This document shows positions 9,220 through 46,989 of a stretch of DNA of 64,000 nucleotides, piece by piece. Source of the stretch: Promethearchaeota archaeon (lineage in GTDB: Archaea; Asgardarchaeota; Lokiarchaeia; Sigyniarchaeales; SOKP01); the NCBI GenBank assembly GCA_048937405.1, contig JBHLNF010000009.1:32001-96000 (forward strand). The letters run 5' to 3'. How positions within the stretch are numbered: the stretch's first letter is position 1; every line of letters begins with the position of its first letter. The position numbers and the translations under genes were made by a program. The notes below the pieces were generated by a model. The model made no database searches. It was not told the origin of the DNA and worked only from the letters and a program-made list of their open reading frames with translations.

Positions 9220-11316
9220 ATGACTGTAGACTTTAATGTAAATAATGTGAGTTTCCATTTTCTTTCATTATACTGGATATTTTTTGTTTTAGTAATTATA
9301 TTGTCCATTTTAGGATTATTTTATATAATGTGGCTTATGAAAAAGTTGTCAAATTTAGAAAATGGAACAGAAGAAATGGTAAAAATACACGATTTAATCA
9401 AATTAGGATCTAATGCTTATCTAAAAAGGCAATTTAAAACGATTAGTATAGTCTTAATAATTCTTTCTGGTTTACTTTTTATTTTTAATATACCATTAGC
9501 GATATCATTTATAATTGGGGCAATAACTTCTTTAATAGCAAGTTATATCAGTATGATCGTATCAACTTTATCAAATGTAAAAGTAACACAAGCTTGTAAA
9601 AAGGACTTGAATAGCGCTTTAAAAATAGGTTTTAATGCGGGGATGGTAATTGGAGTTTCAGTAATTTCTATTTCTTTATTAGGAATTAGTATTTTATACC
9701 TATTGTCTAATTTCAATATTCAAAATATTGTTGGTTTTGCTTTTGGAGCCTCTTTTTCGGCTCTCTTTGCTCAATTAGGGGGTGGGATATATACAAAAGG
9801 AGCAGATATTGGAGCTGATTTAGTAGGAAAATTAGAATATGGATTACCCGAGGATGATATACGGAATCCAGCAGCTATAGCCGACAATGTTGGCGATAAT
9901 GTTGGAGATTGTGCAGGTAGAGGGGCAGATCTCTATGAATCTTCTTCAGCAAATAACATTGCAGCAATGATGATTGGGGCAGCTTTAAGTGCAGTTACAA
10001 ACAATCCGTTATTCATTATTTTTTCCTTAATCTCAAGAGCTTTAGGTAATGTTACTGGTATGATAAGTGGATATTTTGTAAAGATTAAAGAAAAAGATAA
10101 ATCTCCGATCGCGGCATTTGCAAGAAGTCTAATTTCTTCAGCCGTATTAAATATATTTATTTTTTTAATATTAACACTGATTTGCTTTCAAACAGGTTGG
10201 CAATATTTATTCATTAGTTCAGTTTTAGGAATAGCATTAGGATTATCAACTTATTTTCTGGTTGATTATTATACATCCTCAAGATATAAACCAGTAAAAC
10301 ATGTTATAAAAAGTTCTGAAACTGGTGCGGCCACAAATGTAATAAGTGGTTTTTCTTTAGGTTTAGAATCTCCGACAATTCCAGTAATCTCATTTGTTAT
10401 AGCAATTATTATAACATTTCTTCTTGGTGAGCAATATGGGATAGTGAACAATTTTAATCAATATTTAGGAGGAGTATTTGGGATAACTGTTGCAACAATG
10501 GGATTATTATCAATTACAACTATAATATTGGCGTTTGATGGTTTTGGACCCGTATCTGATAATGCTGCTGGAATAGCAGAAATGTCACATCAAGGAGAAA
10601 AAGTACGATATAACTTAGATAGATTAGATGCTGTAGGTAATACAACCAAAGCATTAGCAAAAGGATTTGGTATTACATGCGCTGCATTATCTGCTATAAT
10701 ATTATTTGAAGCTTATTTAGAAGAAATTAAAACTATTGATGTTAATATTTATCATCCTGTAATATTATGTGCATTACTAATCGGAGCAGTGATTCCTTTT
10801 ATTTTTTCTGCATTAGCAATTAGGTCAGCAGGGGTGGCAGCATATGGAATGATTAAAGAGATTCAACGACAATTTGAAGAAGAACCAGGAATACTTGAAA
10901 ATAAATCATTACCAGATTATGAGAAATGTATTGATACTGGTACTAAAGTAGCTTTAAAGCAAATGATAGTTCCTGCATTATTACCTACTTTAACTCCTAT
11001 TATTCTTGGTTTTTTATTTGGTCCTGTCGCGTTAGCTGCATTTATAATATCTGGCACTATATCAGGTATAATCTTAGGATTTGTTTTAAATACTGGTGGA
11101 GGAGCTCTTGACAATACTAAAAAAGCAATCGAAGGGGGACTTTTAGGGGGTAAAGGTTCCGTAGCGCATAAAGCTTCAATTGTCGGAGACACATTCGGTG
11201 ATCCTTTAAAAGATACGGCAGGTCCATCCCTACATATTCTTGTCAAAGTAATAAATACGGTTTCAATAGCTTTTGCTCCTATCTTCATTACTTTTGGAGC
11301 ATTAATAATTTTATAA
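9220..11316 (+). CDS. hppA: Membrane-bound H+-translocating pyrophosphatase, K+-independent type
   Basis: GGGIYTKGADIGADLVGK, EDDIRNP, DNVGDNVGD, GNTTKA (Lys at the K+ site) and GDTFGDPLKDTAGPS. Confidence 0.92.
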   Translation: MTVDFNVNNVSFHFLSLYWIFFVLVIILSILGLFYIMWLMKKLSNLENGTEEMVKIHDLIKLGSNAYLKRQFKTISIVLIILSGLLFIFNIPLAISFIIGAITSLIASYISMIVSTLSNVKVTQACKKDLNSALKIGFNAGMVIGVSVISISLLGISILYLLSNFNIQNIVGFAFGASFSALFAQLGGGIYTKGADIGADLVGKLEYGLPEDDIRNPAAIADNVGDNVGDCAGRGADLYESSSANNIAAMMIGAALSAVTNNPLFIIFSLISRALGNVTGMISGYFVKIKEKDKSPIAAFARSLISSAVLNIFIFLILTLICFQTGWQYLFISSVLGIALGLSTYFLVDYYTSSRYKPVKHVIKSSETGAATNVISGFSLGLESPTIPVISFVIAIIITFLLGEQYGIVNNFNQYLGGVFGITVATMGLLSITTIILAFDGFGPVSDNAAGIAEMSHQGEKVRYNLDRLDAVGNTTKALAKGFGITCAALSAIILFEAYLEEIKTIDVNIYHPVILCALLIGAVIPFIFSALAIRSAGVAAYGMIKEIQRQFEEEPGILENKSLPDYEKCIDTGTKVALKQMIVPALLPTLTPIILGFLFGPVALAAFIISGTISGIILGFVLNTGGGALDNTKKAIEGGLLGGKGSVAHKASIVGDTFGDPLKDTAGPSLHILVKVINTVSIAFAPIFITFGALIIL

Positions 11317-30793: not shown

Positions 30794-30848
30794 AATCAGT
30801 TTATTTATATAAATTTTTTTATCCTTTTCAAATTATGGTGATAAATTT

Positions 30849-31907
30849 ACGAGTTCAATCGTCCCATCCTATTCTTACACATTTATAAGAATAGGTTTTT
30901 TAAGAAAGCTAATAATTGATGATTATAATTTACTTAATATTGACAAAATAAATTCTATTGATACGCTTTTAGAATTTATTAATCCTTTCTACCCAGATTT
31001 AGCTATAAAAGAAAAAACTATTGAAAATATTGAAATGGCTCTTTATCATAACTATATTAAGATGGTTGGTAAAATAATGCTTTACTCACCATCAAATATG
31101 AAAACTTTTCTAACATTCTATCTCTTAAAATTTGAAATAATAAATATTAAACAAATTATCATTGGTTCAATTTTAGGCTTAAGAGTTAAAGATAAGAAAA
31201 AAATGGTTAATTTTGTTGTAGAAGAGTATTTAGATAACACAGAGTTCATTGATGATCTGCTTAAAATCTCATCTTTGGATGAAATTCAATATTTTATGAA
31301 AAAAACGAGATATAATATACCTATAAGTGAAGGTATTTCGTATTTTAAAAAATACAGAGAAATATTTGTTTTAGAAGCTTTTTTGGATAAATTTTACTAC
31401 GAAAATATGATAATTCAGTTAAATAATTTGAGAGCTCAAGAAAGAAAAATCATAGAGACATTTGTAAAATATAAGACTGAAATTTATAATTTAAAAATCA
31501 TTTTTCGAGGTTTAAAAAATGGTATTGAAAAAGAGTTATTGTCTCAATTTCTAATTGATTATCATTTATTTTTAGATATGGGTAAGATAAATTATTTATT
31601 AAGTATTGAAGATTTGAATGTTCTAATCTCTCTAATTGAAGAGTATATTAATAGTAATAGGGAATTAAAAAGAGGCTCTGAGCAGAAACTAGTTGATAGA
31701 GAGCATTTAATTAATTCAATTGAAGACTTATATCTTCATTATTATTTTATAAAATTTAAAATTAGTATGGGTGAAATTGATTTAATCACAATATTCAGAA
31801 TTTTAGAATTAATTATAAAGAAAGAAAATGAAATTAGATTTCATATTATTCCAAAAATAGTAAAAATAATTCATGAAAAATTTGAAAAATTACAATCAAT
31901 TGAATAA
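30849..31907 (+). CDS. atpC: A/V-type ATP synthase subunit C (d); start re-assigned to near-cognate ACG (or ATC 30858)
   Basis: The frame is open from TAA 30810. Upstream of ATG 31035 it encodes YSYTFIRIGFLRKLII (subunit C N-terminal Y-x-Y-xx-R motif). Also FEIINIK, LEAFLDKFYY, EIYNLK; 352 aa; SD GGTGA at 30837-41. Confidence 0.75.
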   Translation, partial: TSSIVPSYSYTFIRIGFLRKLIIDDYNLLNIDKINSIDTLLEFINPFYPDLAIKEKTIENIEMALYHNYIKMVGKIMLYSPSNMKTFLTFYLLKFEIINIKQIIIGSILGLRVKDKKKMVNFVVEEYLDNTEFIDDLLKISSLDEIQYFMKKTRYNIPISEGISYFKKYREIFVLEAFLDKFYYENMIIQLNNLRAQERKIIETFVKYKTEIYNLKIIFRGLKNGIEKELLSQFLIDYHLFLDMGKINYLLSIEDLNVLISLIEEYINSNRELKRGSEQKLVDREHLINSIEDLYLHYYFIKFKISMGEIDLITIFRILELIIKKENEIRFHIIPKIVKIIHEKFEKLQSIE

Positions 31908-31937: not shown

Positions 31938-32249
31938 ATGGAAATTTTCGAATGGATTAAAGAGATCGAAAAAGTTTATGAAAATTTGATTGAAAAAGCT
32001 AAAAATGAGAATTTAACTGAATTAGAAAGTTTGAGAGAAGAACAGGAAAATCTAATGGAAAAAAACATTGAAAATTTTCGAAATTCATCTGATTCAGCAT
32101 TGAAAACATTGACTAAAAATTTGGAGGATAAAAATATCTTTATAAAAGAGAAATTAAAAGAATTTAAAAATAAAATGAAAAAAACCTATAACGATAATAA
32201 AAAAAACTTAATAGAATTAATTATAAAAGATATTGGTTTTGATTTTTAA
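31938..32249 (+). CDS. atpH: A/V-type ATP synthase subunit H (G)
   Basis: 103-aa charged coiled coil (IKEIEK..E..IEKAK) in operon position. Confidence 0.65.
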   Translation: MEIFEWIKEIEKVYENLIEKAKNENLTELESLREEQENLMEKNIENFRNSSDSALKTLTKNLEDKNIFIKEKLKEFKNKMKKTYNDNKKNLIELIIKDIGFDF

Positions 32250-32569
32250 TGCCAGATCAGAAAATTCATGTATTAGGTCAAGAAGAATTTGTTTTAACAT
32301 TTGGTCTTTTAGGTATAGATGGTACTATTATTGAAAAAAGTGAAGAGTTTCTTAAGAAATTTGACACATTGATTAAAGATTCCTCAATTGGAATGATAAT
32401 AATTTTTATGGATTTATCAGATGAAATTATAGACTTTATTTTAGACTTTAAAATAAGCAATAAAAGTCCATTTATATTTTTTATACCTAATATTTTCCGA
32501 CTAGATTTTGAGAATCGAGATATATTTTTTAATAAAATTTTTGAATCTATTGAAAAAATTATAACTTAA
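32249..32569 (+). CDS. atpF: A/V-type ATP synthase subunit F
   Basis: KIHVLGQEEFVLTFGLLGI, IGMIII, P..IP; TAATG overlap with the upstream gene. Confidence 0.85.
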   Translation: MPDQKIHVLGQEEFVLTFGLLGIDGTIIEKSEEFLKKFDTLIKDSSIGMIIIFMDLSDEIIDFILDFKISNKSPFIFFIPNIFRLDFENRDIFFNKIFESIEKIIT

Positions 32570-32581
32570 GAGATGTAGATC

Positions 32582-33310
32582 ATATCAGAAATTAATTTAT
32601 TAAAAGAACGATTTGGGAAATTAGGATTATATCTTATTGATAAAGCTAAAACTGAAATTAAAAAGCTTGATCAACAAACCTTATTTCAAATTGCAGAAGT
32701 TAAAAAGAGGTATAGAGAACGAATAGCAGATAGTTCTTTAAAAATTAAAAATAGTTTTATTGATACATATAATAAGCAATTAAATAATTCAATATCTTCG
32801 ACCCTGTTAAAAATTAAGCAGGAAACATTAAGTGTTAAAAATGATTTAATTTCAACTTTAATTAAAGATTTAAATTTACTTTTAGAAAAAAAAATTAATG
32901 ATAATTATTCAAATTATATAAAATTCCTATTATCAACATTAGAAAAAATCAAAAATTTAATAGACAAGCCTCCACAAGTCGTTATAAATTTAAATTCTAA
33001 AGATTATGAATATTTTCTTGGGAAATTTGACAAAATTCAAAGTATTTTCAAAAATAGAGTTACATTAAATCCTACAAAAGATGAATTTATAGGAGGATTT
33101 AGAATTTTGCAGACTGAAATGAACATTTCTTATGATTTTTCCATTGTAAATTTAATAAATAAAAAAAAATCAAGTATCGAAATTAAATTCTCAAAAATCT
33201 TTTCAGATACATATTTAGAACTAAATGAAATAATCGAAAATTATGAAAAATTCATTCAAGATCAAAAATTAGCTATAAAAGAATATTTACAAGATTATGA
33301 CAATTTCTAA
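32582..33310 (+). CDS. atpE: A/V-type ATP synthase subunit E; start at near-cognate ATA (or ATC 32579)
   Basis: Stop-free frame from TAG 32576 to 33310 (242 aa): N-terminal coiled coil, LNSKD, IGGFRI, SYDFS. The first 175 codons contain no ATG/GTG/TTG, so the ORF track shows only the last 67 aa. Confidence 0.85.
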   Translation: MSEINLLKERFGKLGLYLIDKAKTEIKKLDQQTLFQIAEVKKRYRERIADSSLKIKNSFIDTYNKQLNNSISSTLLKIKQETLSVKNDLISTLIKDLNLLLEKKINDNYSNYIKFLLSTLEKIKNLIDKPPQVVINLNSKDYEYFLGKFDKIQSIFKNRVTLNPTKDEFIGGFRILQTEMNISYDFSIVNLINKKKSSIEIKFSKIFSDTYLELNEIIENYEKFIQDQKLAIKEYLQDYDNF

Positions 33311-35147
33311 TAAAAAAGCTTATGAGAAGTTAAATTTTGGGTATATAACCTCAATAAATGGATCCTTAATTGAAATAAAAGGATTTGAAAGTCAAGTTCG
33401 TACTCACGACTTAATAAGAGTATCTGAACAAAATATATTAGGTGAAGTGATTCAAATTTATTCAGATCACGCCACTGCTCAATGTTTCGAGAGTACTAAT
33501 AACTTAAAGTTAGGTGAGAAAGTAACCAATTTAAGAGAACCATTATCAATGGAGTTAGGTCCAGGATTATTAGGTAATGTTTTCGATGGTATTCAAAGAC
33601 CTTTAGATATAACCTTTGAAAATACAAATAAAGGTTTTTTAGAAAGAGGGAATGATTTACCAGCATTATCAAGAGAAAAAAAATGGCATTTCATTCCCAA
33701 AAAAAAATTAAATGACATTGTAAGTAGTGGTGATATTATTGGTACGGTACAGGAAACTCTAGTCATAGAACACAGAATATTGGTTCCAATAGGTATTAAA
33801 GGAAAATTGAGTTTTATAGCTAAAGAGGGAGATTATACGATTAAAGACAAAATATTTTGTGTGAAAGAGAAAAATGTTGAGAAATCTTTTAGTATGTTGC
33901 AAAAATGGCCAATTATCAAAAATAGACCTTATAAGAGGCGTGAATCTCCTATTGAACCATTAATTACAGGTATGCGGGTAATAGACCTATTATTTCCCAT
34001 AGCAAAAGGAGGTACTGTTGCTGTACCTGGAGGTTTTGGTACAGGTAAAACAGTAATTCAACAATCATTAGCTAAATGGTGTAATGCTGATGTTATTGTT
34101 TTTGTAGGATGTGGTGAAAGAGGAAATGAAATTGCAGATGTTTTAAAACAATTTATTGAAATAATTGATCCAAAAAGTGGAACTGCATTGTTGAATCGAA
34201 TAGTTTTAATAGCTAATACATCTAATATGCCAGTTTCAGCTCGAGAAGCTAGTATTTTTTCAGGAGTAACAATTGGAGAGTATTATCGAGATATGGGATA
34301 TGATGTAGCAGTATTAGCAGATAGTACCTCAAGGTGGGCAGAATCACTACGAGAGATCTCAGGATTATTAGAAGAAATGCCAGCTGAAGAGGGATATCCT
34401 GCGTATTTACCATCAAGAATTTCTAGTTTTTACGAGAGAGCTGGAGTTGTAAACCTTTTAGGTGAAGATCCCGCGAATAAAGAAAGATATGGATCTTTAA
34501 CAATAATCGGTTCTGTCTCCCCGCCTTCTGGAGATTTTAGTGAACCTGTTACGGCAACCACCAAACGTTTTGTACAGGCTTTTTGGGCATTAGATGCTAG
34601 TCTAGCATACTCTAAGCATTATCCTGCAATAAATTGGCTCAACTCTTATTCAAATTATCCCGATTATATAGTTGACTGGTGGTCTGATAGGGATATCTTT
34701 TGGCCTGAGATAAATCTCGATTGGTATGAAAGTAGGGATCAAGTGAATAACATTCTTTCTCAAGAAAATGAATTAAGAAATATAATGCAACTAATTGGGG
34801 AAGAAAATCTACCTGATGATCAACAATTAATTCTTTTTATTTCCAAATTAATTAGAAATAGTTTTTTAATTCAAAATGCCTTTGATGATATTGATAATTT
34901 CACTGATACTAAAAAACTACTTGGTCAGATTAAATTAATTCTTCTATTATATAAAGAAGGAATGGAACTATTAAATTCAGGATATTTAATTGAAGATATT
35001 AAGAACCTCGAAGTAATTGATGACATTTTACGAATAAGTTATTCGATTTCTAATGATAATTTTTCAGAAATAGAACAATTAAAGAAAAGGTTAAATAATG
35101 AAATAGAATCATTAAAATTATCATATGGGGTCTCTAAAGAAAAATGA
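33297..35147 (+). CDS. atpA: A/V-type ATP synthase catalytic subunit A
   Basis: PGGFGTGKT Walker [44 protein letters not shown]. Confidence 0.97.
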
Positions 35148-36535
35148 GTATTATCTATGGAAAAATTGAACAAATTGTAGGACCGTTGTTATTCTTAAGT
35201 AATGAACATGATGCACAATATGGGGAGATTGTTAAAATATTAACTAATGGTGGGATAGAACGTACTGGTCAAGTTGTAAAAATAGATGAAGATACTATTG
35301 TTATTGAAGTATTTGAAGATACAAGTGGTTTATCCTCAGAGAATTCTAAAATTCTTTTTACAGAGGATTCTTTTAAAGTTAAAATCTCGAATGATATGTT
35401 TGGTAGAACATTCAATTCACTTGGAAAACCAATTGATATAAATACTAAAAAGGTTTTAGAATCTGAGTTGATAACAGAAGTTGAACGAGATATTAATGGA
35501 GCACCAGTTAACCCATTCGCAAGAGAATACCCAACCGAAGTAATCCAGACAGGTATATCTGTTATTGACGGGCTGTTTACTTTAATAAGAGGACAAAAAC
35601 TTCCTATATTTAGTGGACAAGGAATGCCACATAATGCACTAGCGGCTCAAATTGTTACACAATCTAGAGTTTTAACAGAAGAACCTTTTCTAATTATTTT
35701 TTGTGGTATAGGAATTATCCAGGATGAAGCAATTTATTTTTTAAATAGGTTTCAAGAAAGTGGAAATATCCAAAATATCATTTCATTTATAAATTTTGCA
35801 GATGATCCCATAATGGAGCGTTTAATAATTCCAAGAGTAGCATTAACTACTGCAGAATATTTCGCTTTTGATAAAGATATGCACGTTCTTGTTATTTTAA
35901 TAGATATGACTAATTATGCTGAAGCATTAAGAGAACTTAGCTCAGCAAAAGAAGAGATTCCTAGTAGAAAAGGTTATCCAGGATATCTATATACTGATTT
36001 TGCTTCAATTTATGAGCGAACTGGCAAAATAAAAGGTAAAAAAGGAACAATAACTCAAATACCTATTCTAACAATGCCAAATGATGATATATCTCATCCA
36101 ATTCCAGATACCTCAGGATATATTACTGAGGGGCAATTAGTCCTTAATAGAAATTTGCATAAAAGAGGTATATATCCACCCTTTGAAGTTTTAGCTTCTA
36201 TATCGCGACTTATGAAAGATGCAATTGGTGAAAATACAACAAGAGAGGATCACAAGGATATAAGTTCCCAATTATTAGCTTCGTATTCAAATACTCTTGA
36301 AGTTAGAGATCTTATATCAATTGTTGGTGAAGATGGATTGAACAGTAATCAAAGATCTACGTTAAAGTTTGGAGAAATCTTCGAACATGAATTTTTAAAC
36401 CAAAACGTAAATGAGAATCGAGATTTTACAACAACTTTTAAAATAGCTTGGAAATCTTTATCTGCTTTACCAAAAAATCAATTATATAGAATTCATCAAG
36501 AATTTATTAAAAAATATTATCAAGAGCAGGTGTAA
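35144..36535 (+). CDS. atpB: A/V-type ATP synthase subunit B
   Basis: [47 protein letters not shown]. Confidence 0.97.
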
Positions 36536-36542
36536 TACTACT

Positions 36543-37193
36543 ATTAGTTTTAGAGAATTCAAACCTACAAAAACAAACTTAATGAGTTTACAGAAAAGAT
36601 TAAATTTTGCTGTGAAAGGTAAGAGCTTTTTAGAATTTAAACAAGAACAATTGATATTTGAAATTAAAAAGTTATGGAGTGACTATAAAATACAGCGTAA
36701 AAACTACCTAAATCTATTCATAGAAGTCATGATTTGCTTGCAACAGACTTATATGGAAATGGGAAAGAACAATTTTAAAATAATTAGTAGTTTGAGCAAA
36801 ATCCAATTCACCCCAACTATCAATGTTAACTATGTAAAAAAGATTGGTAATGTAGTACCAGAGATAGAATATGAACTAATAAGAAAAGAAAGACTTCCCG
36901 CTTATTCTTTTGAATATACAAGTCATTATCTAGATGACTTAATAAAAAAATTAACAAATCTTTTCAATATAATGATTCATTTGGCAGAAATCGAAGATGT
37001 AATGTTAAAACATTCGCTAAGTTTTAAAAAAATAACTCGAAGAATCCATGGACTAAATAATATTATTATCCCCTCACTTAGTCAAGAAATTAAAAAAATA
37101 AAAGATATATTAGAAGAAGTTCAACGAGAGAATTTTGTAAGATTAAAAAGTATAAAAGATCTAATTTATGAAAAAAAGTTTATAAAAATGTGA
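36543..37193 (+). CDS. atpD: A/V-type ATP synthase subunit D; start re-assigned to near-cognate ATT
   Basis: The conserved KPTKTNL motif lies upstream of the first ATG (36582). Also ITRRIHGLNNIIIP and RENFVRLK. SD CAGGTG at 36527-32. Confidence 0.85.
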   Translation: MSFREFKPTKTNLMSLQKRLNFAVKGKSFLEFKQEQLIFEIKKLWSDYKIQRKNYLNLFIEVMICLQQTYMEMGKNNFKIISSLSKIQFTPTINVNYVKKIGNVVPEIEYELIRKERLPAYSFEYTSHYLDDLIKKLTNLFNIMIHLAEIEDVMLKHSLSFKKITRRIHGLNNIIIPSLSQEIKKIKDILEEVQRENFVRLKSIKDLIYEKKFIKM

Positions 37194-46401: not shown

Positions 46402-46521
46402 AGATATTCACAAGATAATAAATAATTTAAATATATTATTAATTTGTGTCAAAATATTTATAAGATCTAATAATAAATTAAAATCATATAACCTTAAAAT
46501 AATATTTATGAGGTGTGAGTT

Positions 46522-46989
46522 ATTTCAGAAGAAATAAAAACTAAAGTCAGATTAAAATTAGATGATTCTGAATCTCAAATGATTTTTAGATGCGATTTAG
46601 GTAATATGAAGGTTAAAGATTGTTATATCGATGAAGAACATCACAAAGAAGTTGATATGTTAGGACCAAATCCCTCAAGGATGGTTGCTTTAGGAGTATT
46701 AGGATGTATGAGTGCTAGCTTTATCTTTTGCTTGAAAAAACGAAATTTTAAAGTTGAGGATTTTAAAGGTGAAGCAGAGGTTACAATAACCAGAAATGAG
46801 AAAGGGTTTTTGAGAATTAGGAAAATAGATGTTAAAATTGAACCCAAAATAGGAAATCCAGAAGCTCTCAAGAGAGCAAAACAATGTTTAAAACAAGTTA
46901 AAGATGGATATAGTTTTTTCGAACAATATTGTATAGTAACACAATCGATAAGATCTGGAATAGAGGTAAATGTAAATATTGATCTTTAA
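46522..46989 (+). CDS. OsmC/Ohr family protein; start re-assigned to near-cognate ATT
   Basis: GPNPSRM..LGCMSAS, EQYCIVTQS. The upstream frame ISEEIKTKVRLKL aligns with paralog MSNEKKSKVELKL; in-frame TGA at 46516; SD GAGGTG at 46510-15. Confidence 0.85.
   Translation: MSEEIKTKVRLKLDDSESQMIFRCDLGNMKVKDCYIDEEHHKEVDMLGPNPSRMVALGVLGCMSASFIFCLKKRNFKVEDFKGEAEVTITRNEKGFLRIRKIDVKIEPKIGNPEALKRAKQCLKQVKDGYSFFEQYCIVTQSIRSGIEVNVNIDL

What the first reader, a model, noticed from the sequence alone, without database searches (positions are those of the whole stretch)
32570..33310. Hidden atpE: 175 codons with no canonical start, preceded by an in-frame ATG-TAG start-stop element
The sequence reads GAG ATG TAG ATC ATA TCA GAA. 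OsmC1 has the same layout (GAG GTG TGA GTT ATT TCA GAA). The simplest reading is that GAGATG/GAGGTG is the SD and ATA/ATT is the start. An alternative is a minimal start-stop uORF that loads ribosomes for re-initiation two codons later. Either way a core subunit cannot be made from a canonical start.
Basis: partly seen in the sequence, partly recalled or inferred. Interest (0 to 1): 0.7.

Follow-up and report, generated by a model that had tools for sequence, protein, structure and literature searches.

The report
Asgard atpE starts at AUA
The gene for ATP-synthase stalk subunit E in this uncultured Asgard (Loki-type) archaeon really has no ATG/GTG/TTG start and almost certainly begins at an ATA codon behind a ribosome-binding site, as it does (ATT/ATA) in over 70 related genomes; the ATG-TAG in front of it is most likely part of that binding site, not a device of its own.

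Summary
After atpF's TAA the + strand reads GAG ATG TAG ATC ATA TCA GAA. The frame then runs 243 codons to TAA at 33310, and the first in-frame ATG/GTG/TTG is TTG at 33107, 176 codons in. The genome is a Promethearchaeota (Lokiarchaeia-type) MAG and this is its only atpE.

In 91 orthologues the codon aligned with ATA 32582 is ATT (61), ATA (11) or ATC (2), against ATG (7), TTG (2) and GTG (1). Canonical starts appear at exactly this codon in scattered lineages, with at least 6-8 switches on the tree. One example is an ATG relative that is sister to an ATA relative. GAG-to-ATA spacing (12 nt) matches the mode for ATG genes here, and the 18 codons after ATA change mostly synonymously.

The ATG-stop pair occurs in only 10 of 74 ATT/ATA/ATC (ATH)-start orthologues, all in one subclade, and it is not enriched genome-wide. 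It therefore reads as part of the SD (GAGATG for GAGGTG).

Genome-wide, perfect 6-mer SDs are followed by an ATH start as often as by ATG (64 vs 62), and the aIF1 gene also needs ATT. This scan had already noted the habit on other pieces of this same genome. I found no paper describing it. Public gene calls for this gene are truncated or inconsistent.

The parts
32249..32569 (+). atpF (V/A-ATPase subunit F), the upstream gene. Its stop TAA 32567-32569 lies 12 nt before the atpE start and in the same frame.
   Evidence: Pfam PF01990 E 1e-11; sequence
32570..32575 (+). Shine-Dalgarno-like GAGATG, i.e. GAGGTG with one central mismatch. It pairs with the 16S 3' end GGAUCACCUCC; duplex about -5 kcal/mol, a modest SD.
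   Evidence: 16S 3' ends of two genomes of the genus; duplex energy; GAG-N-TG(A) or GGTGA at this place in most orthologues
32573..32578 (+). ATG-TAG 'start-stop' pair. It is read here as SD plus spacer, and the TAG closes the atpE frame one codon before the start region.
   Evidence: Present in only 10 of 74 ATH-start orthologues; not enriched genome-wide
32582..32584 (+). ATA, the inferred initiation codon of atpE, 12 nt from the G of GAG.
   Evidence: Aligned column is ATT 61, ATA 11, ATC 2, ATG 7, TTG 2, GTG 1; spacing mode of ATG genes is -14 to -12
32582..33310 (+). atpE coding sequence, 242 codons plus TAA. The predicted mature N-terminus is SEINLLK after Met removal (inference).
32636..32638 (+). 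ATT used as the start in the public gene call of this very record (224-aa product). It is probably too far downstream.
   Evidence: P0001 begins MDKAKTEIKK; the 18 codons upstream are conserved with mostly synonymous change
33297..35147 (+). atpA, whose ATG start overlaps the atpE 3' end by 14 nt.
46510..46530 (+). OsmC-like gene head with the same layout: GAGGTG, TGAGTT, ATT (46522), TCA GAA. This SD is strong (-9.5 kcal/mol).

Best explanation
atpE of this Lokiarchaeia-type Asgard archaeon is translated from the near-cognate codon AUA at 32582. The small ribosomal subunit is positioned by pairing of the 16S 3' end (GGAUCACCUCC) with the SD-like GAGAUG at 32570-32575. It may also be helped by ribosomes that have just terminated atpF 12 nt upstream. 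An ordinary initiator Met-tRNA (CAU anticodon) then reads AUA with a third-position mismatch. The protein therefore starts Met-Ser-Glu and probably matures to SEINLLK. The ATG-TAG is simply what the SD and spacer look like in this subclade: GAGGTG has become GAGATG and is followed by TAG. It closes the frame but has no separate role. This gene is one case of a lineage-wide habit, in which ATT/ATA behind an SD serves as a start codon about as often as ATG. What is shown: absence of a canonical start, conservation of ATH at the aligned codon, replacement by ATG/TTG/GTG at that same codon in scattered relatives, SD spacing, and coding constraint right after the ATA. What is inferred: that Met-tRNAi is used, that Met is removed, and any regulatory purpose.
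For: Sequence and frame. There is only one atpE in the genome. In the orthologues the aligned codon is ATT 61, ATA 11, ATC 2, ATG 7, TTG 2, GTG 1. The next two codons keep Ser-Glu through TCA/TCT/TCG/AGC/AGT, and the codon before is variable, with an in-frame stop within 4 codons in 44 of 74. All ten replacements in the aligned rows are to start-capable codons (ATG/TTG/GTG), never to the common TTA/GTT/GTA. The tree needs 8 changes, at least 6 of them forced by well-supported branches; for example L179 (ATG TCA GAA) is sister to L087 (ATA TCA GAA). Spacing: GAGGT lies at -14 to -12 in ATG genes. ATA is at 12, whereas ATC 32579 is at 9, a spacing seen in none of 62. Codons 8-19 show Arg CGA/AGA/AGG/CGG/CGC, Leu TTA/CTA/CTG and Gly GGG/GGA/GGT changes, i.e. 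coding constraint. Genome-wide, after perfect 6-mer SDs ATT+ATA+ATC peak at offsets 12-13 (25 and 30 cases) while other AT-only triplets are depleted, giving 64 ATH against 62 ATG starts. aIF1 of this genome has its zinc-knuckle N-terminus upstream of any canonical start and an ATT 6 nt after TGATAA. An initiator-like tRNA with a CAU anticodon and a GGG/CCC stem is present, and no tRNA-like variant with another anticodon was seen. The solved Pyrococcus subunit E aligns from its residue 14 to residue 21 here, so the ATA start gives a full-length N-terminal helix.
Against: There is no protein or ribosome-profiling evidence. The window's own SD is only moderate (-5.0 kcal/mol, about the top quarter of ATG genes and close to the upper quartile of random 20-mers), so SD pairing alone may not explain efficient initiation. 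An adjacent ATC (32579) cannot be excluded biochemically. Orthologues are kin, so the counts overstate independence. Ile to Met/Leu/Val would also be conservative substitutions if the column were internal. The initiator tRNA search was a pattern search only, and most tRNAs of this genome escape the detectors.
Confidence: 0.8

Rival explanations
1. The ATG-TAG is a functional minimal start-stop that captures ribosomes and hands them on to the weak AUA. Ribosomes terminating atpF at TAA would re-initiate 3 nt later at ATG, terminate at once at TAG, and re-initiate 3 nt later at ATA. This relay would bridge the 12-nt gap.
For: GAGATG followed by TAG/TAA is kept in 10 members of the window's subclade even where a 7-nt spacer puts it out of frame with atpE. 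The three subclade relatives with an ATG start have AAG instead of ATG at that place (L179, L180, L185). In Haloferax and E. coli, termination-reinitiation falls steeply with distance and is almost gone at about 20 nt (PMC10666635), so short hops would help. The window's SD is only moderate.
Against: Only 10 of 74 ATH-start orthologues have any start-stop within 18 nt, and all are in one subclade. Within that subclade L086 (ATG TGG), L184 (TTG GTT) and L186 (GTG AAT) have ATA starts without it. The ATG to AAG change in ATG-start relatives is equally explained by a weaker SD being tolerated once the start is ATG. The ATG abuts GAG with no SD of its own. Genome-wide, in-frame start-stops bound 7 of 164 start-less ORFs against 43 of 1297 ordinary ones, and any-frame start-stops are 9.8% against 8.5%.
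Confidence: 0.1
2. Initiation is at the neighbouring ATC (32579), one codon upstream of ATA, giving Met-Ile-Ser-Glu. NCBI's calls for some relatives place the start there (MISE...).
For: ATC is also near-cognate and is the first codon after the TAG. Several relatives have ATT at that position, and PGAP-type calls start there (P0005, P0006, P0011, P0014).
Against: That codon is AAA, ACT, GCA, GCC, GTT, AAG and others in relatives. It lies 9 nt from GAG, a spacing not seen among 62 GAGGT-led ATG genes. Relatives with canonical starts have them at the ATA column.
Confidence: 0.06
3. The protein starts further downstream and the upstream part is untranslated. Candidate starts are the ATT at 32636 used by the public gene call (224 aa) or the TTG at 33107.
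For: The record's own product P0001 begins at ATT 32636, and five relatives are called the same way at 222 aa.
Against: The 18 codons before 32636 (SEINLLKERFGKLGLYL) are conserved across the family with mostly synonymous changes in codons 8-19. Alignment to solved subunit E shows that the shorter form would lack about 11 N-terminal residues of the stalk helix. No SD precedes 32636. A 67-aa product from TTG 33107 would lack most of the Pfam domain.
Confidence: 0.03
4. The gene is broken, or the stops are recoded. TAG might be read as an amino acid so that the ATG at 32573 is the start, or stops might be read through to give an F-E fusion.
For: F and E are in the same frame. One public short contig was called with TAG=Q, giving MQKISE....
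Against: TAA lies two codons before the ATG. Relatives have TGA, TAA or two stops in a row at that place. The frame is otherwise intact over 243 codons in about 90 genomes. The TAG=Q call is a gene-finder choice on a 1.8-kb contig, not evidence of recoding. The ORFs of the window are long and closed under table 11.
Confidence: 0.01

Closest known systems
Bacterial genes with AUU/AUA start codons behind an SD: infC (IF3), pcnB, Enterococcus faecalis ebpA (ATT; PMC4447247)
   Same: A conserved near-cognate start codon at normal SD spacing, read by the ordinary initiator tRNA, in a gene with no usable canonical start. The start-codon proofreading factor's own gene (here aIF1) also has ATT, as infC has AUU (established knowledge).
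   Different: Here the system is archaeal, with eukaryote-type factors (aIF1, aIF1A, aIF2) rather than IF3. The habit is not a rare exception: it covers about half of strongly SD-led genes in this genome. atpE is a structural subunit with no obvious reason for autoregulation.
Near-cognate initiation sites seen by ribosome profiling in Haloferax volcanii (PMC7261190)
   Same: It concerns archaeal ribosomes at near-cognate codons: about 30% of putative alternative initiation sites were near-cognate.
   Different: Those sites were alternative or minor, were set aside by the authors, and were not conserved main starts of essential genes.
Start-stop / minimal uORF elements of eukaryotic 5' UTRs (bioRxiv 10.1101/2021.07.26.453809; PMC13338717)
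   Same: A start codon directly followed by a stop, just upstream of a main ORF.
   Different: Those act on scanning 40S subunits and are mostly repressive. Here the pair sits inside the SD, has no initiation signal of its own, and is neither conserved across orthologues nor enriched genome-wide.
Translational coupling by termination-reinitiation in archaea and bacteria (PMC6728339, PMC10666635)
   Same: The genes are neighbouring subunit genes of one complex on one mRNA with a very short intergenic distance (12 nt), and the SD follows directly on the upstream stop.
   Different: Classic coupled pairs overlap by 4 or 1 nt and use canonical starts. At 12 nt the coupling measured in Haloferax is already much reduced. 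Coupling is untested here.

Membership tests
V/A-type ATPase subunit E (Pfam PF01991) | Sequence match to the family model at or above the curated cut-off | tested here: met
   24.4 bits against a cut-off of 24.2, residues 21-184. This is borderline, but the whole-genome scan gives the same single locus.
V/A-type ATPase subunit E (Pfam PF01991) | Likeness to solved subunit E over the full length | tested here: met
   A profile of 10 relatives hits 4dt0_A and 2dm9_A (V-type ATP synthase subunit E) at E 5e-5 and 9e-5, positions 21-207 to 14-196 of 198 in 2dm9_A.
V/A-type ATPase subunit E (Pfam PF01991) | Position in an A/V-ATPase operon | tested here: met
   The order is K, C, orf103, F, E, A, B, D, I. 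The same F-E-A order is found in relatives.
Genes initiated at AUU/AUA behind an SD (infC/pcnB type) | Conserved coding sequence upstream of the first canonical start, closed by an in-frame stop | tested here: met
   176 codons without a canonical start, with TAG directly upstream; conservation with synonymous change.
Genes initiated at AUU/AUA behind an SD (infC/pcnB type) | Near-cognate codon at the SD spacing used by canonical genes of the same genome | tested here: met
   GAG to ATA is 12 nt, and the mode for GAGGT-led ATG genes is 12-14. The SD strength is only moderate.
Genes initiated at AUU/AUA behind an SD (infC/pcnB type) | The codon is conserved in orthologues and interchanges with canonical starts at the same position | tested here: met
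   ATH in 74 and ATG/TTG/GTG in 10 of the aligned rows; at least 6-8 switches on the tree.
Genes initiated at AUU/AUA behind an SD (infC/pcnB type) | Protein N-terminus or initiating ribosomes mapped to that codon | not testable with these tools
   No proteomic or ribosome-profiling data are available for this uncultured lineage.
Start-stop (minimal uORF) regulatory element | [quoted passage not shown] | tested here: met
   ATG TAG at 32573-32578.
Start-stop (minimal uORF) regulatory element | Conserved wherever the main ORF keeps the same kind of start | tested here: not met
   Found in 10 of 74 ATH-start orthologues, all in one subclade, and missing in L086, L184 and L186 of that subclade.
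Start-stop (minimal uORF) regulatory element | Own initiation signal, and enrichment before the class of genes it is said to serve | tested here: not met
   GAG abuts the ATG with no SD further upstream. Counts are 7/164 against 43/1297 in frame and 9.8% against 8.5% in any frame.
Termination-reinitiation coupled gene pair | Overlap or very short distance between the upstream stop and the downstream start | tested here: inconclusive
   The gap is 12 nt between TAA and ATA. Published assays show a steep loss with distance, almost complete at about 20 nt (PMC10666635). No measurement exists for this lineage.
Stop-codon recoding (TAG as sense / Pyl) | In-frame TAG inside conserved coding sequence, kept as TAG in relatives | tested here: not met
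   TAA lies two codons upstream. Relatives have TGA or TAA, or TGA-TAA together, at that place.

The most novel reading that the evidence does not exclude
In the window's subclade the ATG-TAG/TAA pair is a working relay. Ribosomes finishing atpF would re-initiate on the canonical ATG 3-8 nt downstream, terminate at once, and be delivered 3-4 nt further to the weak AUA/AUU start. Synthesis of stalk subunit E would then be tied to translation of F rather than to free initiation. This would be a prokaryotic start-stop that activates rather than represses, and the loss of the ATG (to AAG) in the relatives that regained an ATG start would be its signature.
Probability: 0.1. Interest if true: 0.75.

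Novelty: new variant of a known kind. Interest (0 to 1): 0.6.

Why it matters
Asgard archaea are the closest known relatives of eukaryotes and use eukaryote-type initiation factors together with bacterial-type SD pairing. Here an essential ATP-synthase subunit keeps an AUU/AUA start across a whole family and swaps it for AUG only sporadically. This is strong comparative evidence that start-codon selection is relaxed in this lineage. It sits beside an aIF1 gene that itself needs AUU.

The practical consequence is immediate. Gene finders cut this protein short or place its start arbitrarily. The record's own call loses 18 conserved residues, Prodigal-type calls start at MKERFG, and one caller even switched to TAG=Q. 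Proteomes, structure predictions and comparative studies of Asgard ATPases inherit these errors.

If confirmed by N-terminal proteomics, atpE would be a convenient abundant marker for studying how aIF1 and aIF2 tolerate third-position mismatches.

Tried and rejected
1. Alternative genetic code or readthrough. This was rejected because TAA lies two codons before the ATG, relatives carry TGA/TAA or double stops, and all window ORFs close under table 11. P0002 looked like a relative with a sense codon at the TAG, but the look-up showed it was simply called with TAG=Q.

2. A second, intact atpE elsewhere in the genome. None was found.

3. A dedicated initiator tRNA reading AUA/AUU. A pattern search found one initiator-like tRNA with CAU and no tRNA-like variant. 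ARAGORN and Rfam find only 14-23 tRNAs in this genome, so the test is weak.

4. The 16S 3' end of the genome itself. No SSU rRNA is present in this assembly, so two genomes of the same genus were used instead.

5. RNA structure or a known RNA family around the start. There was no Rfam match, and the fold z-score is +0.5.

6. A special shared element between atpE and OsmC1. This was rejected because 'SD, 6 nt, ATH, TCA GAA/GAT' recurs at several unrelated genes, and Ser/Thr is the second residue in 32 of 64 ATH-start candidates.

7. Selection against internal canonical starts in atpE. This was not supported, because relatives carry ATG, TTG or GTG within the first 10 codons.

8. Literature. No held paper combines Lokiarchaea with AUU and initiation codon. 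The 2020 review of archaeal initiation does not mention AUU/AUA.

Full report
**What is there.**

The window lies on contig C27 of a 4.47-Mb, 29% G+C assembly. The nearest atpA loci in public genomes carry Promethearchaeota/Promethearchaeia titles, so this is an Asgard archaeon of the Loki type.

The region is an A/V-type ATPase operon in the order K, C, a 103-aa ORF, F, E, A, B, D, I. After the atpF stop (TAA 32567-69) the + strand reads GAG ATG TAG ATC ATA TCA GAA. The frame opened by the TAG runs to TAA 33308-10. Its first in-frame ATG/GTG/TTG is TTG 33107, 176 codons in. In long ORFs of this genome 3.4% of codons are ATG/GTG/TTG, so a run of 176 without one has P about 0.002.

The product is a divergent subunit E:
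- Pfam PF01991 scores just over its cut-off.
- A profile of ten relatives matches the solved subunit E chains 4dt0 and 2dm9 over almost their whole length.
- It is the only atpE found in the genome.

No Rfam family and no unusual RNA fold lie around the start.

**Where translation starts.**

I collected the atpE head from 91 genomes and contigs of the same order. The protein alignment begins abruptly at a conserved Ile-Ser-Glu.
- The codon aligned with ATA 32582 is ATT in 61 rows, ATA in 11, ATC in 2, ATG in 7, TTG in 2 and GTG in 1.
- The following Ser is encoded by both TCN and AGY codons, so it is kept at the protein level.
- The codon before is variable, and an in-frame stop lies within four codons upstream in 44 of 74 ATH rows.
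- Every replacement of the ATH codon in the aligned rows is by a start-capable codon. None is by the Leu/Val codons that are common in this A+T-rich lineage.

On a tree of the proteins the canonical-start rows are scattered. Eight changes are needed, and at least six are forced by well-supported branches. The clearest pair is L087 (…GGAGATGTAAAATT ATA TCA GAA) and its sister L179 (…GGAGAAGTAGAATT ATG TCA GAA).

Families further away in the order start atpE with ATG.

Within the window's subclade, codons 8-19 (KERFGKLGLYLI) change mainly synonymously, through Arg CGA/AGA/AGG/CGG/CGC, Leu TTA/CTA/CTG and Gly GGG/GGA/GGT. The stretch directly after the ATA is therefore translated.

**The ribosome-binding site.**

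This assembly has no 16S rRNA gene. Two genomes of the genus end their 16S in GGATCACCTCC, so the ideal SD is GGAGGTGATCC.

In ATG-led genes of this genome G is enriched at -15 to -8, and GAGGT sits mostly at -14 to -12. ATA 32582 is 12 nt from the G of GAGATG. ATC 32579 would be 9 nt away, a spacing seen in none of 62 GAGGT-led ATG genes.

The window's SD is only moderate, with a duplex of -5.0 kcal/mol. Most orthologues have GAG-N-TGA or GGTGA at the same place. The TGA of the SD itself supplies the in-frame stop when the spacing is 13. This explains why these genes so often look 'closed' right before the start. TGA is the bounding stop for 42% of start-less ORFs (69 of 164), against 16% (225 of 1430) of ORFs whose first canonical start lies 4-14 codons in and 29% (381 of 1297) of those where it lies within 3 codons.

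**The genome-wide setting.**

Among 3,250 open frames of at least 150 codons, 114 have 40 or more start-less head codons, a heavy tail.

I anchored on perfect 6-mers of the SD at the heads of open frames of at least 100 codons. ATT+ATA+ATC peak at offsets 12 and 13 (25 and 30 cases, against 13 and 17 for ATG). Other A/T-only triplets (AAA, AAT, TTA, TAT, TTT) are depleted there. After removing cases with a canonical codon within two codons, 64 ATH and 62 ATG starts remain. Ser or Thr is the second residue in half of the ATH set.

The aIF1 gene of this genome has its Cys-x2-Cys N-terminus upstream of any canonical start, and an ATT 6 nt after TGATAA. An initiator-like tRNA with a CAU anticodon and a GGG/CCC stem is present. 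No tRNA-like variant with another anticodon was seen, though tRNA detection in this genome is poor.

Earlier notes of this scan reported the same habit on other pieces of this same genome. I treated them as leads and re-derived the points used here.

**The ATG-TAG pair.**

The pair is real and is found in independent assemblies (L084, L085, L182). It is limited to the window's subclade. Ten of 74 ATH-start orthologues have a start codon directly followed by a stop within 18 nt of the start, and none of the ten canonical-start orthologues do.

In that subclade the pair is in frame with atpE when the spacer is 6 nt (L083-85) and out of frame when it is 7 nt (L087-90, L183). Three ATA-start members lack it: L086 has ATG TGG, L184 has TTG GTT and L186 has GTG AAT.

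The three subclade members that start with ATG have AAG where the others have ATG (GAGAAG, GAAAAG). This fits a relay idea. It fits equally well the simpler idea that a weaker SD is tolerated once the start is ATG.

The ATG has no SD of its own. Genome-wide, start-stops are no more common before start-less ORFs than before ordinary ones. I therefore read the pair as SD (GAGATG for GAGGTG) plus spacer, and leave about 10% for a lineage-specific role.

Published work shows that termination-reinitiation decays steeply with distance (PMC10666635). The 12-nt gap to atpF leaves coupling possible but unproven.

**Public annotation.**

The record's own product is 224 aa and begins at ATT 32636 (MDKAKTEIKK). 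Other calls vary:
- five relatives are called the same way as the record's own product;
- some are called one codon upstream of the conserved start (MISE…);
- Prodigal-type calls start at an internal MKERFG;
- one short contig was called under TAG=Q.

Non-canonical starts have thus been placed by pipelines, but inconsistently. In the held literature I found no description of AUU/AUA initiation in Asgard archaea. In Haloferax, near-cognate sites were seen by ribosome profiling but were set aside.

**Verdict.**

The finding is one well-conserved case of an apparently undescribed lineage-wide use of AUU/AUA start codons in an archaeon. I file it as a new variant of a known kind, the closest known kind being SD-led near-cognate starts such as bacterial infC and pcnB.

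Noticed in passing
window 30813-31035 (atpC head): Subunit C also lacks a canonical start. 74 codons that include the family-typical N-terminus (YSYTFIRIGFLRKL) precede the first ATG at 31035, and Pfam matches only from model position 60. GGTGA (30837-41) is followed after 7 nt by ACG 30849, a possible near-cognate start with a second-position mismatch.
   Followed up: partly
window 36447-36582 (atpD head): Subunit D's conserved N-terminus (KPTKTNLMSLQKRL) begins upstream of the first ATG at 36582. AGGTG overlaps the atpB stop, and ATT 36543 follows. Three of the nine operon genes (C, E, D) therefore seem to use non-canonical starts.
   Followed up: partly
G000:C29:22004-22219 (-), locus L178: The aIF1 (SUI1) gene has its Cys-x2-Cys N-terminus upstream of any ATG/GTG/TTG (the first is TTG at codon 23), and an ATT 6 nt after TGATAA. 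The start-codon proofreading factor itself needs a near-cognate start.
   Followed up: partly
whole genome G000: ARAGORN finds only 7 tRNAs (14 with introns allowed) and Rfam tRNA finds 23 in a genome scored 100% complete. Many hits are 100-140 nt long, so most tRNA genes probably carry introns. The initiator-like tRNA on C3 (- strand, around position 10368 of the reverse strand) has an insert right after the anticodon loop. No 16S rRNA gene is in the assembly.
   Followed up: partly
L001 (DATKTW010000165.1): The contig with the atpA most similar to the window's (75% identity) carries the public title Candidatus Nanopelagicaceae bacterium (Actinomycetota). Its atpE head is identical to that of locus L099, from the window's own family (same-family genome G048), so this is probably a mis-binned contig.
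   Followed up: no
L182 (Logan SRR14802574 contig): A public gene call on a 1.8-kb contig used TAG=Q, so that the ATG-TAG became the start of atpE (MQKISE...). This shows how the SD-embedded ATG misleads code-guessing gene finders.
   Followed up: yes
window 31938-32249: The 103-aa ORF between atpC and atpF has no family match (only weak, sub-threshold Pfam hits). By position it may be the second stalk subunit (H/G-like).
   Followed up: no
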